Part shown: one piece after another, positions 15,634-46,998 of the stretch
Numbering within the stretch: position 1 is the stretch's first letter
How the letters are laid out: each line of letters begins with the position of its first letter
Assembly: GCA_963695095.1 (NCBI GenBank)
Contig: CAVOFT010000001.1
Span: 416,001-480,000, forward strand
Direction of reading: 5' to 3'
Origin: an uncultured bacterium
Lineage (GTDB): Bacteria > Krumholzibacteriota > Krumholzibacteriia > JACNKJ01
Length of the DNA: 64,000 nucleotides
Position numbers and translations under genes: made by a program
The notes under the pieces: model-generated
What the model saw: only the letters and a program-made list of their open reading frames with translations
Told to the model about the DNA's origin: nothing
The model's database searches: none

Positions 15634-15711
15634 GCCCGCTGCCGCCTCGGGCAGAGTTCCTTCTGCTGACGCACAAAGGCAGGGATGCCGAGCGAGGTGA
15701 GCGGCACTGGC

Positions 15712-15763
15712 CGAGGCGGAGTGTACACGTGTACAAAGCGAGGCGGAGTGTACACGTGTACAA
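15712..15763. repeat. Tandem 25-bp direct repeat (27-bp period), each copy containing palindrome TGTACACGTGTACA
   Basis: CGAGGCGGAGTGTACACGTGTACAA at 15712-15736 and 15739-15763. Confidence 0.95.
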
Positions 15764-15940
15764 GACGAGCCGCCCTACCAGGTGGTGATCTACCGCCGTG
15801 AAGAGCGTGCCGGCCTCCGTCTGCCCGACGGCCGCCGCTCGCCCCCTGAGGGCGTGCGGGGCTCGCCTTGCTGCCCCGCATTTTCCCCTGTATCCCGCCG
15901 CCAAATCGGCTACCCTGGGGGCCCAGCCAGGAGGTCGACG

Positions 15941-18396: not shown

Positions 18397-20702
18397 GTGT
18401 CCAACGCCAGCCCCGCGGGCCAGCGCCTGCCCCAGCCCTACATCGCCGCCGCCACGCTGATGCCCGAGTTCACGCTGCGGGCGGTGATCGTCGGCACCAT
18501 CCTCGGCATGATCTTCGGCGCCTCGTCGCTCTACCTGGTGCTCAAGGTCGGCCTGACCGTGAGCGCCTCGATCCCGGTGGCGGTGATCTCGATCACGCTG
18601 TTCCGGCTGGCTTCCAAGCTGGGCGTGCCGCGACGCCACGATCCTCGAGAACAACATCGTGCAGACGGCCGGCTCGGCCGGCGAGTCGATCGCCTTCGGC
18701 GTCGGCGTGACGATGCCGGCGATCATGATCCTCGGCTTCGACCTCGAGCTGACGCGCGTGATGCTGGTCGCCGTGCTCGGCGGCCTGCTCGGCATCCTGA
18801 TGATGATTCCGCTGCGCCGCGCGCTGATCGTGCAGCAGCACGGCCTGCTCAAGTACCCCGAGGGCACGGCCTGCGCCGAGGTGCTGAAGGCGGGCGCCTC
18901 GGACGAGTCGCGCGCCGCTGGCCTCGGACGAGGCGAAGGAGGAGGAGCGCGCCGCCGCCGCGGCCGGCCTCAAGGCGGGCACCAGCGGGCGCACGATCTT
19001 CACCGGCTTCGGCATCGGCCTGCTCTACAAGACGGCGATGGTGGCGTTCAAGGCCTGGAAGGACGTGCCCGAGAAGCATCTTCGGCGCGCCCTTCAAGGC
19101 GGGCTCCATCTCGGCCGAGATCACCCCCGAGCTGCTCGGCGTGGGCTACATCATCGGGCCGAAGATCGCCGCGGTCATGTGCGGCGGCGGCGTGCTGGCC
19201 TACCTGCTGCTGATCCCGCTCATCAAGTTCTTCGGCGAGGCCATTCCCGGCGCGCTCTCGCCGGGCACGATCCCGATCAGCGAGATGGCGCCCGAACGCA
19301 GATCCGCGGCGCCTACGTGCTCTACATCGGCGCCGGCGCCGTGGCGGCGGGCGGCATCATCAGCCTCGTCCGCTCGCTGCCCGTCATCTGGCACGGCATC
19401 CGCGAGGGCCTGCGCGACGTGAGCCTGGGCGGCAAGGCGGGCGTCGACCCGCACCGCACCGAGCACGACCTGCCGATGACGCTTCGTCTTCGGCGGCATC
19501 CTGGCCATCATCGTGGCCATCGTGCTCGCGCCGCCCCTGCACATGAACCTGCTCGGCGCGCTGCTCATCGTGCTGTTCGGCTTCCTCTTCGTGACCGTGT
19601 CATCGCGGCTGACGGGCGAGATCGGCTCGTCCTCCAACCCGATCTCGGGCATGACCGTGGCCACGCTGCTGCTCACCTGCCTGATCTTCCTGGCCATCGG
19701 CTGGACGGGCGGCAACCACTACGTGACCGCGCTCTCGGTGGGCGCCATCGTCTGCATCGCCGCCTCGAACGGCGGCACGACCTCGCAGGACCTGAAGACC
19801 GGCTTCCTCGTCGGCGCCACGCCGCGGCTGCAGCAGATCGTCGATCCTGATCGGCGCGCTGGTCTCGGCGCTGATGCTCGGGCCCATCCTGCTCAAGCTG
19901 AACGACACGGCGACGGTCTACGTGCCGGCCGCCGAGGTGGCGCCGCGGGCTCGTCACCGATCCCGGGCCGCTCGACGCAGCGCGAGTCCCTGCGCGGGCC
20001 GCAGGCGCGCGCGGACGGGGCGAGCTATCGCGTCTGGCAGAAGCGCGACAACGAGGGCGGCCCCGCGGGCAAGTACCTGGTGGACGACGCGGGGCGCGCG
20101 GTCTACCTGGTGGACCCGGGCATCAACGGCGCCTACACGCAGCGGCCGGATGGGACCAGCGTGCGCAAGTTCGACGCGCCCAAGGCCACGCTGATGAGCT
20201 ACATCATCACGCGGCATCCTGGACCGGCAGCTGCCCTGGGCGCTGGTGCTCTTCGGCGTGATGATCGCGGTCATCCTGGAGATGGCGGGCATTCCGTCGC
20301 TGGCCTTCGCGGTGGGCGTCTACCTGCCGCTGTCGTCGTCGACGCCGATCTTCGTCGGCGGCATGATCCGCTGGCTGGTGGACCGGTTCCGGCGCCGCGA
20401 GCTGAAGCGCGCGGGCGCGGCGGCCAGCGCCGAGCAGCTTGCCGCCGAGAGCGACAAGAGCCCCGGCGTGCTGATGGCCTCGGGCTACATCGCGGGCGGG
20501 GCGATCGCGGGCATCGTGATCGCCTTCATGGCCGGCGTGCTGATGGGCCTGGACGAGAAGCTCACGCGCTGGGCGGCCGCGCACAACCCCTTCTACGGCG
20601 GCGCCTCGGCGGACCTGCTCGCGCTGATGCCCTTCGTGCTGCTGAGCGCTGCTGCTCTTCTTGGTAGGCCGCGAGAAGCTGCTGGCTGGGCGCGCGCGGT
20701 AG
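18397..20702 (+). CDS. OPT-family oligopeptide transporter with many frameshifts (about 9; assembly error or pseudogene)
   Basis: [89 protein letters not shown] spread across frames. Confidence 0.88.
20482..20690 (+). repeat. Copy 1 of duplicated OPT 3' end
   Basis: Aligns by eye with 22003-22195 (GYIAGGAIA...DEKL.RWA). Confidence 0.85.
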
Positions 20703-20722
20703 GATTGCCCCACGGGCTCTCT

Positions 20723-20760
20723 GGCGCGAATGCGCCGCCCGCTGAAACCAGTTGTTAGGT
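20723..20760 (-). mobile_element. Truncated integron attC site (R''-L'' half only)
   Basis: Minus strand, 5 nt after the DHFR-family stop: ACCTAAC-AACTGG-TTTCAGCGGGCGGCGCATTCGCGCC; matching L'/R' arm absent. Confidence 0.65.
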
Positions 20761-20765
20761 CGCCT

Positions 20766-21404
20766 TTAGACACGCACGTAGCGCAAGTGGGTTGCAGCTG
20801 GACTATCAAGCACCTTGTCGATTCGGAACCGCGGAGCCGGCTCGCACAGGTTCTCGAAGAGGCGTCTCCCGCCGCCGAACACCACTGGCGCCAGCGCGAT
20901 CTCCAGCTCATCGATCGTACCCAGGTTCAGGTACTGCTGGATCACGTCCGCGCCGCCTGAGATGCGAACATCGCGGCCGCCGGCAGACTCCCTGGCCTGC
21001 TCGAGGGCCCTCTCCGGCCCGTCGTTGACGAAGTAGAAGGTCGTCCCTCCCGGCCGGACCCAGGCTTCGCGCTTCTCGCGGGTGAGCACGTAGACCGGAG
21101 TGTGAAACGGGGCCTCCTCGGGCCATGAGGCCTCGCCTTGCTCGAACATGCGCTTGCCCATGATGTTGGCACCGATGCGCTCCGTGGTGCTGCGAAGCAG
21201 CTCATTGACAGGGCCGGTCTCTCCCCCTGGTCCGAGCTTGAGGTTCTCGCGGAAGTACTGCTGATTGAGGATCCAGGCCATCAGCGCACCCCACTTCGCG
21301 CCCCAGTCCTTGTACTCGGGCCTGTCCCAGTTCTCAATGGTCATCCCATCCGGCGCCATGTAGCCGTCAAGGCTGAGTCCGATGTTCACGAAGACCTTGG
21401 GCAT
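20766..21404 (-). CDS. Dihydrofolate reductase family (RibD C-terminal) protein
   Basis: SLDGYMA, IMGKRMF, FHTPVYVLT, DVRISGGA, IDELEI..APV.FGGG.RLF. Confidence 0.9.
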   Translation of the reverse strand: MPKVFVNIGLSLDGYMAPDGMTIENWDRPEYKDWGAKWGALMAWILNQQYFRENLKLGPGGETGPVNELLRSTTERIGANIMGKRMFEQGEASWPEEAPFHTPVYVLTREKREAWVRPGGTTFYFVNDGPERALEQARESAGGRDVRISGGADVIQQYLNLGTIDELEIALAPVVFGGGRRLFENLCEPAPRFRIDKVLDSPAATHLRYVRV

Positions 21405-21425
21405 AAGGCATCTCTCCTGATTCTG

Positions 21426-21914
21426 CTACTTACCCCGGCGCGCGGCCTCGACGGCGGCGATGTCGATCTTCCCCATCTCCATCATCGCATCGAAGGCGCG
21501 CTTGGCGGCGGCGGGATCGGGGTCCGTGATCGCATCGGTCAGGGCGATCGGCGTGATCTGCCACGACAGTCCCCACTTGTCCCGGCACCAGCCGCAGGCG
21601 CTCTCCTCGCCGCCGTTGTCGACGATCGCCTGCCAGTAGCGATCCGTTTCGGCCTGGTCGGCGGTCGCGATCTGGAAGGAGAAGGCTTCGCTGTGCTTGA
21701 TCCCGGGTCCGCCGTTGAGCCCGAGGCAGGGAATGCCGAGCACCGTGAACTCGACGGTCAGCACGTCGCCCTGCTTGCCGGACGGATAGTCCCCTGGCGC
21801 GCGATGCACCGCGGTGACGGCCGAATCGGGGAAGACCTTGGCGTAGAAGCGCGCCGCTCCCTCGGCATCGTTGTCGAACCAAAGGCAGATCGTGTTCTTG
21901 GCGACCTTGCGCAT
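21426..21914 (-). CDS. PhnB/YjdN-like VOC family protein
   Basis: CLWF, AARFY..VFPDS, LNGGP, EAFSF, QAETDRYW, CGWCRDKWGLSWQI, M.KIDIA; GGAGG RBS. Confidence 0.92.
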   Translation of the reverse strand: MRKVAKNTICLWFDNDAEGAARFYAKVFPDSAVTAVHRAPGDYPSGKQGDVLTVEFTVLGIPCLGLNGGPGIKHSEAFSFQIATADQAETDRYWQAIVDNGGEESACGWCRDKWGLSWQITPIALTDAITDPDPAAAKRAFDAMMEMGKIDIAAVEAARRGK

Positions 21915-22002
21915 GCTGCTCCTCCTTTGCGATGGGCGATCGGCCATACCTTGCGCCACGGATTATGGAGGAGGGATCGTTGCCATCGCAAGGGTGGGCG
22001 GT

Positions 22003-22195
22003 GGGCTACATCGCGGGCGGGGCGATTGCGGACACCGTGATCGGCTTCGTGGCCGGTGTGCTGATGGATCTGGACGAGAAGCTCATGCGCTGGGCGGAGG
22101 CGCAGCCTGATCTTCGCAGGCGCCTCGGTGGACCTGCTGGTGCTGCTTCCCCTCGTGCTGCTCTTCCTCGTCGGCAGGGAGAGCTGCTGGCAGGA
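22003..22195 (+). pseudogene. Degenerate second copy of the OPT gene 3' end
   Basis: Direct repeat of 20482-20690 with substitutions and small deletions. Confidence 0.85.
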
Positions 22196-22311
22196 TGGGG
22201 CGGGAGGGATCGTGGGTGAGCCGCCCCTGGGGGTGGTCTTCGTCGCGCCGTCAGTAGCGTGCTTAATTAGGTGGCGGGCGGGCAGGCTCTAGGTAGCGGA
22301 TCGCAAGTACC

Positions 22312-23448
22312 CTACCAGTCCATGTTCCTGTGGGAATCCTGTTCCCACGCGGTGCGATCGAGGTAGTCGTTGAAGCTAGCAGGATCGGCCACAGCACTCT
22401 CGTAAATTGAGATGGACTCTGGATTGAAGTAGACATCTAGTCCGGCCGAGACATAGCGGAAACCGAGCTCATGTGTTCCGCTCTCGAGGAAGGAGTCGGC
22501 CCTGTCAAGCTGCTTGCAGTTCTCTGAGAAGCTTGCATCCGAGAGTGGATGAATAGAGAGGCGGTTTTCTGTCGACCTGGATAGGCGGGCAGGAATGGCT
22601 CCTACGCCGGGGACTTGGACATGGACTAGATTCAGCGAGCGATCGAAGCCTCCGTGCGTCGCCGGGTTGCGGTGCTCCTGTTTGACCCGCAGGAGCTGCT
22701 CGTAGACGGTCTTCGCAAGTGGGTTCGTTTGAAGGTCGAACACGCGCTTGTACTTCGCGGCCCAGTCGGCTGTGATGATGGACTCTAAGTCGTCCCGTTG
22801 CGCATCGAACCCGGAGAAGGGAAGGAGGAGTACCAGCACGTGCTCGAGCCAGCTGAAGAAGGCATCCAGAGCAGCGGATCCGGCGAAAAATCCTTCACGC
22901 TCGGGCCTGAAGGGGTACGAAATAGTCACTTCGCCGCGAGCGGCACGCTGTTTCACGGGTGGTGGTGGATCCGAGGAGAAGCTCGCGATTGCGAGTTCTC
23001 TAAGGTAGTCGTAGCGGTCTCGGAAGAGGCGGAAATGGTTCGGGATTGTGATGCGGCCCTCCCGGATCAACAAGCGGATCTCGGGCTCCAGATCACGTTC
23101 AACCAGCGGAACCGCGCGCTGGAGCACGTCGGCGAAGGCCTGCAGGGGAGCACCGTCCTCCCCAGCACTGGCTCGCGCGCGAACGCGAAGCCCGAACTTC
23201 TCCGATGAGACCACGATCAGCGAGCCCTTGAAGGATATGGCTGTGACCCAAGCGGTCTTCTCAATGGGTCTTGTGTCGAACCTAGCCCCGATGTAGCGCT
23301 CTAGAACGACCTTGACTAGGTACGGAGCGGGCATGTTCTGCGGAGTATCAACGAGGCGAAGACCCTCACCGGAGAACGAGAGAGACTCGGCGACGACATC
23401 CTGCAGGATAAACCGCAAGGCGTTGGTGGCTTCTGACTGCTCGCTCAT
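22312..23448 (-). CDS. Cassette-borne hypothetical protein with HEPN-like RxxxxH motif (candidate defence RNase)
   Basis: Lower GC than flanks; ATG 15 nt after attC R'; AFFSWLEHVL helix and RNPATHG motif. Confidence 0.7.
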   Translation of the reverse strand: MSEQSEATNALRFILQDVVAESLSFSGEGLRLVDTPQNMPAPYLVKVVLERYIGARFDTRPIEKTAWVTAISFKGSLIVVSSEKFGLRVRARASAGEDGAPLQAFADVLQRAVPLVERDLEPEIRLLIREGRITIPNHFRLFRDRYDYLRELAIASFSSDPPPPVKQRAARGEVTISYPFRPEREGFFAGSAALDAFFSWLEHVLVLLLPFSGFDAQRDDLESIITADWAAKYKRVFDLQTNPLAKTVYEQLLRVKQEHRNPATHGGFDRSLNLVHVQVPGVGAIPARLSRSTENRLSIHPLSDASFSENCKQLDRADSFLESGTHELGFRYVSAGLDVYFNPESISIYESAVADPASFNDYLDRTAWEQDSHRNMDW

Positions 23449-23463
23449 GCTTCCGATCTCGCC

Positions 23464-23574
23464 GCCCAACGTCCAGGAAAACCAGCGAAGGCGGCCGGCG
23501 AAGCCGGATGTCACGGGCCTGGCTACGGCCAGGCCTGTGACACAGCCTTCGGCTGGTTCATGCTGCTGTTAGGC
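23464..23574 (-). mobile_element. Complete integron attC site (111 bp)
   Basis: Minus strand GCCTAAC (R'') AGCAGC ATGAACCAGCCGAAGGC (L'') ... GCCTTCGCTGGTTTTC (L') CTGGAC GTTGGGC (R'), with central hairpin TGTCACAGGCCTGGC/GCCAGGCCCGTGACA, between two co-oriented ORFs. Confidence 0.85.
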
Positions 23575-23590
23575 TGTTCCGATATCTCAC

Positions 23591-23956
23591 CTAACGCTTC
23601 ACAAGACTGGGAAGCAAGAGCAACGACCCACAGAACGGGCACTTCACTTTCCGGCCGGCCTGCTGCAACTGCCACGCCAAGACCTGGCTGCAATTCTCGT
23701 TCGGGCACGTAACCACACGCTGCGCCTGAGTTCTGCTGCGTGAGCCAGGGGCAGCGACCGTGGGAGTCGATACCTGCCGCCCAGCGATGTCTTGGAGAAG
23801 GCGAGTTTGCTTCTGTTGCTCTTCGAGTGCGTGCCTTGCGGCGTCAGCCGCGTCTTTCGCAGCATCTGCCGCTTCTATCGCATCATGCTCTGTGCAACAG
23901 TCTGGGCATTCCATCCAGCTGTCTTGAATTGGGTATCCATGGTGACGCCGGGACAT
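23591..23956 (-). CDS. Cassette-borne small protein with Cys motifs (N-terminal HH..CPDC, coiled coil, C-terminal zinc ribbon)
   Basis: GGAGGAGG RBS; CPNENC...KVKCPFCG; bounded by GTTAGGC (24000-24006) and attC. Confidence 0.75.
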   Translation of the reverse strand: MSRRHHGYPIQDSWMECPDCCTEHDAIEAADAAKDAADAARHALEEQQKQTRLLQDIAGRQVSTPTVAAPGSRSRTQAQRVVTCPNENCSQVLAWQLQQAGRKVKCPFCGSLLLLPSLVKR

Positions 23957-24564
23957 CGGTCTAGACCTCCTCCCACTCGCAACGACGAGCTCACTTGGAG
24001 CCTAACGCGAAATGGCGACGTAGGGATAGTTAGCTTCCTGGGTGTAAACGGCCAGATAGCACCGATCATCTTCCGCAACCGCGCCAAGCAATTGTCGGCA
24101 GTGGCGCTACATTGATGCGTCAATTCAGTTGCGGACTGTACGGCGGGACGATCCGCATAGCAAGATACTGACAGCGAATCGCAGCGGACTGAGCCGGATC
24201 CGCCGCCCGGTGCCTTGTTTGGGCACTGTTGCTTCCACGCGACAAATCCTCATCGACGGGACTCCCGACGCCATGCCCCGCGATTCAGCGCATGCGCGCC
24301 GAGCATGATCGTGGTGACGTCTTGCTCCCCAGGAGTCCCTGGGCACTTCGGTTGCTTCGGCCCGACTCCAACCCGACTCCAAGAGGAGGCACAGCGGAGG
24401 ACTCGCATTCGACAAAGGCGCAAGGCGGGTCTGACCGGTCAGCCAGATGGGAGATACAGCTCTCAGGCGAGCCCAATCCGCCCCCGGGGGCGGGTCGGCG
24501 CGCCAGCGCGGCGCCGCATCCCTTTCCGCTGGCCTTCCCCCCGGCGAGGCGCTTTAATCGCCCC

Positions 24565-25272
24565 ATGCCCGCCCCGAATCCCCAACCTTCGGCCCTCATC
24601 ACCGGCGGCAGCGCCGGCATCGGCCTCGCCCTGGCCGCCGGCCTGATCGAGGACGGCTACCGCGTCGCCATCAGCGGCCGGGACGCCGCCCGCCTGGAAG
24701 CCGCTGCCAAACGAACCCACGCGACCCTCGCCCTGCCCGCCGACCTCCGCGACCCCGCCGCCGTCGACGCCGCCATCGCCCGCATCGAAACGGACTTCGG
24801 CCGCCTCGATGTCCTCGTCAACAACGCCGGCCAGGGGCGCTTCCTCTCCCTGGCCGAGACCAGCGAGGCCGACTGGGAGGCCATGATCGGCACCAACCTG
24901 ACCGGCGCCTGGCGCATCACCCGCCGCTGCCTGCCCCTGCTGCTCGCCAGCCGCGGCGCCCTCGTCAACATCATCTCGGTGGCCGGGCGCCAGGGCTTCG
25001 CCAGCAACAGCGCCTACTGCGCCAGCAAGTTCGGCCTGCGCGGCCTGGCCGAGGCCCTGCGCGAGGAGCTGCGCGGCCAGGGCCTGCGCGTCATCAACAT
25101 CTACCCCGGCGCCACGGACACGCCCTTCTGGGACACGGTTTCAGGAACCTGGGACCGCAGCCGCATGCTTCGCCCCGAGGACGTGGCCCGCGCCGCCCGG
25201 GACGCCCTCAGAATGCCCGCGGGGGCCCTGGTCGAGGACCTGGTCATCGGCCCGGCCGGCGGGGCGCTCTAG
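24565..25272 (+). CDS. SDR oxidoreductase, probable bacterial sepiapterin reductase
   Basis: TGGSAGIG, NNAGQGRF, SVA, YCASKFGLRGL, PGATDTPFW, M.RPEDVA, VEDLVIGPAGG; resembles the Chlorobium-type enzyme as recalled. Confidence 0.8.
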   Translation: MPAPNPQPSALITGGSAGIGLALAAGLIEDGYRVAISGRDAARLEAAAKRTHATLALPADLRDPAAVDAAIARIETDFGRLDVLVNNAGQGRFLSLAETSEADWEAMIGTNLTGAWRITRRCLPLLLASRGALVNIISVAGRQGFASNSAYCASKFGLRGLAEALREELRGQGLRVINIYPGATDTPFWDTVSGTWDRSRMLRPEDVARAARDALRMPAGALVEDLVIGPAGGAL

Positions 25273-42655: not shown

Positions 42656-43242
42656 GCCCGCGGGCGAAGGCGACGCGCCCGACCGTACCGCGCATCCTGC
42701 CGCTCACCAAGGAGCGCTGGGCCGATTTCGAGGCCCTCTTCGGCCCGCGCGGTGCCTGCGGCGGCTGCTGGTGCATGTGGTGGCGGCTGAAGCGCGCGGA
42801 CTGGGAGCGCGGTCAGGGCGCGGGCAACAAGCAGGCGATGAAGAAGCTGGTGGCCGGCGGTGCGGTGCCCGGGCTCATCGCCTACCTGGGTGAGGAGCCG
42901 GTGGGCTGGGTGTCCATCGGCCCGCGCGAGGACTACCCCGTGCTCGGCCGCTCGCCCGTGCTCAAGCCGGTGGACGACACACCGGTCTGGTCGGTGGTCT
43001 GCTTCTTCATTCGCCGCGAGCACCGGCGCCAGGGTCTGAGCCGCGCGCTCATTGCCGCGGCCAAGAAGCACGCCAAGGCGGGCGGCGCCCGCTGGCTCGA
43101 GGCCTATCCCACGGAGCCGAAGAAGAGCGAGGTGCCGGACATCTACGCCTTCACCGGCGTGCCGGCGATGTTCACCGCCGCCGGCTTCAAGGAGATCGCG
43201 CGGCGCTCGCCGACGCGGCCGATCCTGCGCTGCAAGCTGTAG
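42652..43242 (+). CDS. GNAT family acetyltransferase (intact copy)
   Basis: TTG overlapping sppA stop; LFG.RGACGGCWCMWWR, PVGW, W.VVCFFI, R.QG, EAYP. Confidence 0.9.
   Translation: MSPRAKATRPTVPRILPLTKERWADFEALFGPRGACGGCWCMWWRLKRADWERGQGAGNKQAMKKLVAGGAVPGLIAYLGEEPVGWVSIGPREDYPVLGRSPVLKPVDDTPVWSVVCFFIRREHRRQGLSRALIAAAKKHAKAGGARWLEAYPTEPKKSEVPDIYAFTGVPAMFTAAGFKEIARRSPTRPILRCKL
42780..43242 (+). repeat. Left copy of ~460-bp direct repeat flanking the ISCR island
   Basis: About 30 mismatches (manual count) versus 46536-46998. Confidence 0.95.
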
Positions 43243-46535: not shown

Positions 46536-46998
46536 GTGCCGGCTGAGGCGCGCCGACTGGGAGCGCGGCCAGGGCGCGGGCAACAAGTAGGCGATGAAGA
46601 AGCTGGTGGCGGGCGGCGCGGTGCCCGGCCTCATCGCCTACGTCGGCGATGAGCCGGTGGGCTGGGTGTTGGTGGGACCGCGCGAGGACTACTCCGTGCT
46701 CGGGCGCTCGCCCGTGCTCAAGCCGGTGGACGACACGCCGGTCTGGTCGCTGGTCTGCTTCTTCATTCGCCGCGAGCACCGGCGCCAGGGTCTGAGCCGC
46801 GCGCTCATTGCCGCGGCCAAGAAGCACGCCAAGGCGGGCGGCACCCGCTGGCTCGAGGCCTATCCCACGGAGCCGAAGAAGGCCGAGGTGCCGGACATCT
46901 ACGCCTTCACGGGCGTGCCGGCGATGTTCAACGCCGCGGGCTTCAAAGAGATCGCCCGCCGCTCGCCGACGCGGCCGATCCTGCGCTGCAAGCTGTAG
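46536..46998 (+). pseudogene. 5'-truncated second copy of the GNAT gene with CAG>TAG nonsense change
   Basis: Direct repeat of 42780-43242; fused to a broken cargo ORF (MMRILLPLF..., from 46467). Confidence 0.9.

What the first reader, a model, noticed from the sequence alone, without database searches (positions are those of the whole stretch)
20723..24006. Degraded integron cassette array without an integrase (CALIN)
Seen: four minus-strand, lower-GC genes punctuated by a complete 111-bp attC (23464-23574), a truncated attC half (20723-20760), a degenerate R'' (ACCTAAT, 22266-22272) and a leading GTTAGGC core (24000-24006). The first cassette's leading GTTAGGCT is exactly complementary to the AGCCTAAC of its own attC, as expected for a true cassette. 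No tyrosine recombinase is present in the window. Inference: this lineage uses or has used integron cassettes.
Basis: partly seen in the sequence, partly recalled or inferred. Interest (0 to 1): 0.72.

Follow-up and report, generated by a model that had tools for sequence, protein, structure and literature searches.

The report
Decayed integron with integrase stub
This is the broken-down remnant of a bacterial gene-capture system (an integron): a 106-base scrap of its enzyme gene, one whole and one half recombination site, and captured genes that include a likely anti-phage ribonuclease, all likely frozen in the chromosome; it is a known kind of relic.

Summary
The cassette signal is real, but the label needs changing. 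The 111-bp attC (23464-23574) is the only clear window hit of an attC model built from other loci (32.6 bits, E 9e-6). The half site at 20760 is the best attC left arm in the genome. The R'' at 22272 is not above chance.

Across the class, intI is common (91 of 208 genomes). In 17 of 17 loci with attC hits the array follows intI's 3' end on the same strand, exactly as here. So this is a decayed inverted-integrase chromosomal integron with one surviving attC, not a four-cassette CALIN.

The array is also interrupted by a decayed copy of the neighbouring transporter gene's 3' end. The RibD_C gene is a widespread cassette that has lost most of both sites and sits behind a VOC gene. The 378-aa gene is a likely HEPN ribonuclease. 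Earlier scan notes report similar intI-remnant integrons in other genomes. Known kind; modest interest.

The parts
24249..24354 (-). 3' remnant of an integron integrase gene (about the last 35 codons; two small deletions against the profile, catalytic Tyr codon not kept; the rest of the gene is absent)
   Evidence: nhmmer with a profile of 47 class intI 3' ends, whole genome, no filters: 29.8 bits, E 6.5e-7; covers the IntI tail, which the two Xer genes do not; best hit in the reversed genome 14.7 bits; pairwise scores 64-109 to intI ends, 53 and 59 to the xer ends
24000..24006 (-). Leading core GTTAGGC; likely R box of attI and start of cassette 1
   Evidence: Sequence; about 245 nt after the intI end, against 181-377 nt in 8 of 17 relatives with a clear core; does not score as an attC right arm (0.8 bits)
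23591..23956 (-). Cassette 1 gene, 121 aa: N-terminal HHG..CxxC..EH motif, coiled stretch, C-terminal zinc ribbon
   Evidence: Ribosome-binding-like AGGAGG before the ATG; weak zinc-ribbon Pfam hits; one full-length relative at 49% and several N-terminal relatives; none in 207 other genomes of the phylum
23589..23595 (-). Second core-like GTTAGGT overlapping the stop of the 121-aa gene, 21 nt before R''; unexplained
   Evidence: GTTAGGY occurs only 35 times in the genome; right-arm score 8.3 bits, rank 363
23464..23574 (-). Complete 111-bp attC of cassette 1
   Evidence: similar sites at 74-83% identity in five other class genomes
22312..23448 (-). Cassette 2 gene, 378 aa, likely stand-alone HEPN ribonuclease (R260-x4-H265)
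   Evidence: R260, N261 and H265 invariant in 11 of 11 aligned proteins; HEPN domains dominate the top fold matches, Z 6-8; one relative named Apea-like HEPN; homologue followed by an attC hit in 4 of 80 loci
22266..22272 (-). Possible eroded R'' of cassette 2; not distinguishable from chance
   Evidence: 0.1 bits, 12,925 positions as good; only its position, 40 nt after the stop, speaks for it
22003..22207 (+). Broken second copy of the 3' end of the OPT transporter gene (first copy 20482-20703)
   Evidence: 84% over 162 nt by blastn, with small deletions; differences at codon positions 1/2/3 = 4/12/8 over 51 codons, and 4/1/5 over the last 16
21962..21991 (-). Sigma-70-like promoter of the VOC gene, inside an inverted repeat
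   Evidence: Only promoter-like match in 20400-24700 (shuffles: mean 0.5, so weak); a contig of another organism matches 21820-21998 (X1 record 7)
21426..21914 (-). VOC / PhnB-like gene (PF06983); no att site here
   Evidence: Pfam E 3.5e-48; an 81% homologue in L248 is followed by an attC-like sequence by eye
21405..21425 (-). Remainder of the RibD_C cassette leader, joined directly to the VOC stop; the core site is gone
   Evidence: 19 of 21 nt match leaders in L174, L178, L180 and L214; 44 of 78 homologues carry GTTRRRY 20-40 nt before the start
20766..21404 (-). RibD_C (dihydrofolate-reductase-family) gene, a widespread integron cassette
   Evidence: Pfam PF01872; 83-91% identical proteins in many phyla; complete attC right after the stop in 31 of 80 loci, 3 of them in the training set
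20723..20760 (-). Left half of the RibD_C cassette's attC (R'', spacer, L'', apical hairpin); right arm missing
18397..20702 (+). OPT oligopeptide-transporter gene (several frameshifts, likely assembly errors); left border
   Evidence: Pfam PF03169; 87% match in same-genus G001; single extra bases against related contigs
24565..25272 (+). Short-chain dehydrogenase; right border (adjacent to folE in relative G007)

Best explanation
The locus holds a scrap of an integron integrase gene followed on the same strand by a core site, two foreign genes and one whole attC, and is likely the decayed remnant of a chromosomal integron of the inverted-integrase type whose cassettes can no longer move. Shown: the intI 3' remnant, the complete attC, the half attC, the lack of an intact intI in this assembly, and the same intI-then-array layout in relatives. 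Inferred: IntI once inserted circular cassettes at attI (crossover at G24006), first the HEPN cassette and then the zinc-ribbon cassette. A deletion later removed most of intI, and further deletions removed the distal attC arms. The RibD_C cassette lost its core site and the right arm of its attC and became the second gene behind the VOC gene and its promoter (domestication). The VOC-RibD_C block is set apart by a second copy of the OPT 3' end, so host recombination, not IntI, placed it: either a tandem duplication plus deletion, or additive recombination anchored in OPT. The 378-aa protein is predicted to cut RNA, most likely as an abortive-infection defence toxin (about 55% for that role).
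For: intI remnant: 29.8 bits, E 6.5e-7 genome-wide, IntI-specific tail, closer to all 47 intI ends than to either xer end. Layout: of 34 class intI loci searched, 17 had attC hits at E<=0.01, and in all 17 they lie on the intI strand beyond its 3' end (one mirror hit on a palindrome aside; 3 of the 17 supplied training sites). Spacing from intI end to first core matches relatives. No intact intI by TIGR02249, PF00589, PF13495 or tblastn with 13 IntI proteins. attC. RibD_C is a cassette elsewhere. HEPN homologue L091 sits in a four-attC array. The segment is an insertion: folE and the SDR gene are about 100 nt apart in G007, and G001 has different cargo after OPT.
Against: The attI is inferred from position only; the 245-nt spacer showed no significant match to relatives' spacers. 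Only 4 of 80 HEPN homologue loci show an attC after the stop (one was a training site, three have E 0.01-0.04), all at 28-40% identity, and the gene's own R'' is not recognisable, so its cassette status rests mainly on the GTTGGGC core 22 nt before its start. No context was obtained for relatives of the zinc-ribbon gene. The assembly is 93.5% complete, so an intact intI elsewhere is not excluded. None of the intI loci examined was flanked by folE, queD, OPT or SDR, so the site is not shown to be an ancestral integron site. No promoter-like match was found upstream of cassette 1. HEPN fold Z-scores of 6-8 are within the range that helical bundles give by chance, and Foldseek gave nothing at E<=0.001.
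Confidence: 0.85

Rival explanations
1. No integron ever stood here: single cassettes were dropped into the chromosome at attG-type secondary sites by an integrase passing through (SALIN origin).
For: One complete attC only; 10.1101/2022.09.11.507474 (passages) shows insertion at GWT sites and proposes this origin for SALINs and small CALINs. A second, isolated attC-like remnant follows an ABM gene at C1:3594525.
Against: An intI 3' remnant lies at the distance and on the strand where class relatives have intI.
Confidence: 0.06
2. One reading: one contiguous array of four cassettes (CALIN) whose attC sites simply eroded in place.
For: All four genes are co-oriented. RibD_C is a true cassette elsewhere, and a VOC homologue is followed by an attC-like site in L248.
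Against: A 205-nt host-gene copy sits between genes 2 and 3. The 22272 site is at chance level. VOC has no att site and is host-like in GC3. Only one attC passes the model. It could still be true that VOC and RibD_C were distal cassettes of this array before a duplication and deletion.
Confidence: 0.07
3. Sub-question, option A: the VOC-RibD_C block arrived later from a sister lineage by recombination anchored in the OPT 3' end, pushing the old OPT end and the integron remnant downstream.
For: The RibD_C half site is far better preserved than the OPT copy and the 22272 site. The last 16 codons differ mostly at third and first positions (5 synonymous, 3 not), and the broken copy shares two codons with G001. 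The GNAT pair in the same window shows allele-like differences, 6/3/16. HK and MFS genes elsewhere in the genome have similar displaced 3' pieces. The mechanism is described in PMC5361080 (passages).
Against: Over the first 51 codons the differences are 16 non-synonymous to 3 synonymous, as in neutral decay, unlike G000 against G001 (8 to 19). The G001 tail comparisons in that script were out of frame and are not used.
Confidence: 0.45
4. Sub-question, option B: a tandem duplication of OPT-end + RibD_C + VOC within the chromosome, followed by a deletion that removed the second gene pair and the HEPN cassette's attC.
For: Needs no donor; neutral-type differences in the broken copy; G001 has a short VOC-like 3' remnant downstream of its OPT gene by eye.
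Against: Does not explain the synonymous-rich tail or the recurring pattern at other gene ends.
Confidence: 0.45

Closest known systems
Inverted-integrase (reverse) chromosomal integrons, as in Treponema, including the integrase-less remnant of T. phagedenis (PMC3607928, passages)
   Same: [quoted passage not shown]
   Different: Different phylum. A 106-nt piece of intI survives here, only one attC is whole, and a host-gene duplication splits the gene row.
CALIN (10.1101/030866, passages)
   Same: attC-associated genes with no working integrase nearby; the paper proposes such loci as steps toward fixed genes.
   Different: CALIN needs at least two attC; one passes here. The paper found intI pseudogenes near only 15 of 279 CALINs, so this locus belongs to that minority.
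SALIN and attG insertions (10.1101/2022.09.11.507474, passages)
   Same: A single detectable attC; the paper notes that attC hairpins are easily deleted, which domesticates the gene.
   Different: The intI stub and attI-like spacing point to a lost resident integron, not a secondary-site insertion.
HEPN ribonucleases of anti-phage and toxin systems (AbiA HEPN domain, HEPN-MNT toxins, RnlA); a HEPN AbiU2 defence cassette is reported in 10.64898/2026.03.17.712381 (passages)
   Same: Rx4H motif (motif definition recalled, not from a call), helical bundle, carried in integron cassettes.
   Different: No Pfam, NCBIfam or PADLOC family; Atlas clusters for a homologue are unnamed and RnlA matches have TM <= 0.30; no partner gene.
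Homology-facilitated illegitimate recombination leaving displaced 3' ends (PMC5361080, passages)
   Same: New DNA lies between an intact gene end and an orphaned copy of that end.
   Different: The anchors here are housekeeping-type genes and the cargo is a former cassette; the mechanism is not shown.

Membership tests
attC site (23464-23574) | R'' RYYYAAC and R' GTTRRRY that pair in a hairpin | tested here: met
   one mismatch at position 4 of the R box
attC site (23464-23574) | L box, unpaired central spacer, two to three extrahelical bases, variable terminal structure (PMC11641012, passages) | tested here: met
   Model alignment over all 77 positions with one broken pair. By eye, bottom-strand extrahelical C at 23559 and G at 23551/2, and one A-A mismatch in the L box
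attC site (23464-23574) | Recombined by IntI on the bottom strand | not testable with these tools
   Needs a recombination assay
Complete integron | Intact intI next to at least one attC | tested here: not met
   Only a 106-nt frameshifted 3' remnant; no intact intI in the assembly
Inverted-integrase integron (remnant) | intI on the cassette strand with its 3' end toward attI | tested here: met
   Stub on the minus strand ending about 245 nt before the core; same in 17 of 17 informative class loci
Inverted-integrase integron (remnant) | attI site with L and R boxes | tested here: inconclusive
   R-box core present at the expected distance; no significant similarity to relatives' spacers
Inverted-integrase integron (remnant) | IntI-specific insertion domain | tested here: inconclusive
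   That part of the gene is absent from the window; the stub matches the IntI C-terminal tail
CALIN | At least two attC sites within 4 kb on one strand | tested here: not met
   One hit with my model R1; IntegronFinder's own model was not available
CALIN / SALIN | No integron integrase nearby | tested here: met
   No intact gene; the remnant is too short for protein profiles
Integron cassette (RibD_C gene) | Single gene between a GTTRRRY core and an attC | tested here: not met
   Here the core and the right arm are deleted; met in homologues (31 of 80 with attC, 44 of 78 with core), so it is a former cassette
Integron cassette (378-aa gene) | Leading core complementary to its own R'' | tested here: inconclusive
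   Core GTTGGGC present; the own R'' is not recognisable; 4 of 80 homologue loci attC-linked
HEPN ribonuclease | Conserved Rx4-6H motif in a helical bundle | tested here: met
   the fold scores alone are middling
HEPN ribonuclease | RNase activity or phage defence | not testable with these tools
   No PADLOC match

The most novel reading that the evidence does not exclude
After losing its integrase, this genome kept acquiring former cassette genes by a second, integrase-free route: DNA from relatives recombines into the 3' end of a resident gene and leaves the old end orphaned downstream. The OPT locus would be one of at least four such events in the genome (OPT, GNAT, a histidine kinase, an MFS gene). 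It sits in a class where nearly half the genomes carry inverted-integrase integrons that I did not find described.
Probability: 0.25. Interest if true: 0.55.

Novelty: new member of a known kind. Interest (0 to 1): 0.33.

Why it matters
It gives a clear worked case of how an integrase-less attC locus arises: by loss of a resident integrase, which published surveys could recognise in only about 5% of CALINs. The stub is invisible to protein profiles and shows up only with a lineage-specific DNA profile, so that share may be an underestimate. It also shows the last step of cassette domestication in one gene, and points to a class-wide set of inverted integrons and an unnamed HEPN family worth testing for phage defence. 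None of this is a new mechanism.

Tried and rejected
Rfam gave nothing relevant. The whole-genome search with model R1 missed even the known site, so its blank for G000 is uninformative; I used a position-weight scan instead. tblastn with IntI proteins and filtered nhmmer missed the stub; only unfiltered DNA profiles found it. No intI stub or matching spacer was found in G001, G002, G006, G007 or G008 by DNA search (hits were a dispersed short repeat), nor in eight G001 contigs by profile. The HEPN gene was not found with this query in 207 other class genomes. The zinc-ribbon gene gave no hits in the word-indexed search, the phylum or viral contigs. The Atlas does not hold the window's 378-aa protein; a homologue was used. 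Foldseek gave no match at E<=0.001. No sequencing run held the locus (best share 0.08) and no RNA holder was listed; the four runs laid were other organisms, so cassette loss or expression could not be tested. Plasmid search with the RibD_C gene gave only 60-80% matches; the annotated rows shown are named dihydrofolate reductase family protein. Of 154 local direct repeats I inspected 8 high-identity sets; most of the rest looked like paralogous domains and were not examined. The set at C1:3490790-3502506 looks like IS91-type transposase ends (recalled motif) and was dropped. Literature: 'Krumholzibacteri' with 'integron' gave 2 listings, both on dehalogenation, not read; 'inverted integrase' gave 3. 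Supplements were not opened; those of the IntegronFinder papers may list loci from this phylum.
Full report
Setting. The window is G000:C1:416001-480000 of a 3.64-Mb, 70% GC, two-contig assembly, 93.5% complete. Earlier AI notes call it Krumholzibacteriota-like; I did not test that name. The finding lies between an OPT transporter gene and a short-chain dehydrogenase. In family member G007, folE and that dehydrogenase are about 100 nt apart, so OPT and everything up to about 24560 is an insertion relative to G007. Same-genus G001 shares folE-OPT (87%) but carries a PIN/AbrB-like gene pair after OPT (named by eye).

The attC. The site at 23464-23574 has R'' GCCTAAC and R' GTTGGGC on the minus strand. 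It had the lowest folding energy per base of 30 candidates in the genome and folds with z -7.7. I built a covariance model from 46 attC taken from RibD_C and HEPN homologue loci and from intI neighbourhoods, leaving out sites found by similarity to this one. It gives one clear window hit, here, at 32.6 bits and E 8.7e-6, with the other strand at 8.9 bits. That is at the low end of class sites (24-55 bits), and one L-box pair is broken, so decay may have begun. Similar sites occur at 74-83% identity in five class genomes.

The partial sites. A weight matrix for the left arm ranks 20760 first of 7.2 million positions (26.8 bits; training median 23.5), whereas 22272 scores 0.1 bits and is at chance level. 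The 8-nt match between the leading core and R'' is real but weak, since half the training sites begin GCCTAAC. A second core, GTTAGGT, overlaps the stop of the 121-aa gene 21 nt before R''. It could mark a separate gene-less 125-bp cassette; I could not decide this.

The integrase. Protein searches find only two XerC/D-like recombinases in the genome. A DNA comparison of the region upstream of 24006 matched the 3' end of a relative's intI. A profile of 47 class intI 3' ends, run unfiltered on the whole genome, finds 24354-24249 at 29.8 bits, E 6.5e-7. The only other significant hits are the two xer genes, which stop before the IntI tail that the stub covers. The reversed genome gives at most 14.7 bits, and the stub scores 64-109 against intI ends and 53-59 against xer ends. 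It has two small deletions, lacks the catalytic tyrosine codon, and nothing of the 5' part remains.

Orientation. The stub is on the cassette strand and points toward the core, opposite to the textbook layout. This is the norm in the class. intI passes the family cut-off in 91 of 208 genomes (3 of 11 others in the family, 0 of 2 in the genus). Of 34 intI loci searched, 17 had attC hits, always on the intI strand beyond its 3' end; many of the others break at a contig end just after intI. In 8 of the 17 a clear first core lies 181-377 nt after intI, and in 6 of these it is the exact complement of the first R''; several others have toxin-antitoxin-like genes there instead. The window's distance is about 245 nt. 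This matches the Treponema arrangement (PMC3607928, passages). The spacer itself is not conserved, so attI is placed by position only.

The genes. RibD_C has 83-91% identical relatives across many phyla. A complete attC follows the stop in 31 of 80 loci (my count; 3 were training sites) and a core precedes the start in 44 of 78. In the window the last 21 nt of the typical leader survive, 19 of 21 identical to four homologues, but the core is replaced by the VOC stop codon and the attC ends after its apical hairpin. VOC is host-like and has the only promoter-like match in the region, a weak signal. The 378-aa protein has an invariant R-N-x3-H in 11 sequences, a confident model (pLDDT 83.5) and HEPN domains as most top fold matches at Z 6-8, which the tool warns is middling. 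No library names it. An attC follows the homologue in 4 of 80 loci at 28-40% identity, among them the best hit, which lies in a four-site array; a stricter pattern scan found 1 of 61. The 121-aa gene is real (one 49% full-length relative), but I have no context for its relatives.

The interruption. A broken copy of the last 220 nt of OPT lies at 22003-22207, between the HEPN and VOC genes. The row is therefore two blocks, each starting at an OPT end. Most differences in the copy are non-synonymous, as in decay, but the last 16 codons differ mostly silently, so I cannot choose between duplication-plus-deletion and recombination with a sister allele. I confirmed it and found allele-like differences, and saw similar displaced 3' pieces at a histidine kinase and an MFS gene. 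I did not check empty sites in relatives for these.

Comparison and verdict. It is not a complete integron (no intact intI) and not a CALIN by definition (one attC; 10.1101/030866, passages). IntegronFinder would likely call it a SALIN, but the stub argues against the attG origin proposed for SALINs (10.1101/2022.09.11.507474, passages). It is a decayed inverted-integrase integron with an adjacent domesticated cassette gene. Earlier scan notes describe intI-remnant integrons in other genomes (not checked). My searches did not show a description of integrons in this class, but the library lacks most subscription journals. Interest 0.33; new member of a known kind.

Noticed in passing
G000:C1:3594525-3594619 (L274:4026-4120, +): A second attC-like remnant right after an ABM monooxygenase gene: second-best left arm in the genome (22.9 bits), weak full-model hit (16.6 bits, E 0.043). 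Likely another domesticated cassette.
   Followed up: partly
window 42780-43242 and 46536-46998: GNAT gene end duplicated (93.5%, 463 nt) around foreign DNA; differences mostly silent. Already noted by the scan.
   Followed up: partly
G000:C1:575679/588156, 3511519/3514259, 331907/332879, 3212271/3215553: Further gene islets bounded by 80-90-nt diverged direct repeats of a gene's 3' part (histidine kinase, MFS) or of intergenic DNA; the first encloses about 12 kb of large surface-protein-like genes.
   Followed up: partly
class-wide, e.g. L283, L285, L282, L280: Long inverted-integrase arrays with 95-115-nt attC; several have toxin-antitoxin-like genes directly after intI without a clear core.
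   Followed up: partly
G001:C118 (L317), C271, C295, C226: Same-genus genome with at least 9 attC sites and no intI found in a 430-contig assembly.
   Followed up: partly
window 23594-23956 and P0013-P0042: An unnamed N-terminal module (HHG-x-I-x-x-S-W-x-E-C-x-x-C-x-x-E-H) found on proteins of 53-499 aa, some with TPR-like or membrane parts by eye.
   Followed up: partly
L171-L250: Many RibD_C homologues end in attC sites cut at different points, suggesting this one cassette has been domesticated many times.
   Followed up: no
window 21926-21995: Inverted repeat enclosing the VOC promoter and reaching the ribosome-binding site; possibly regulatory.
   Followed up: no
window 24478-24517 and 15702-15836: Short dispersed repeats present in many copies in this genome or in genus relatives.
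   Followed up: no
window 18397-20702: OPT gene with several single-base frameshifts that related contigs lack; likely assembly errors.
   Followed up: partly
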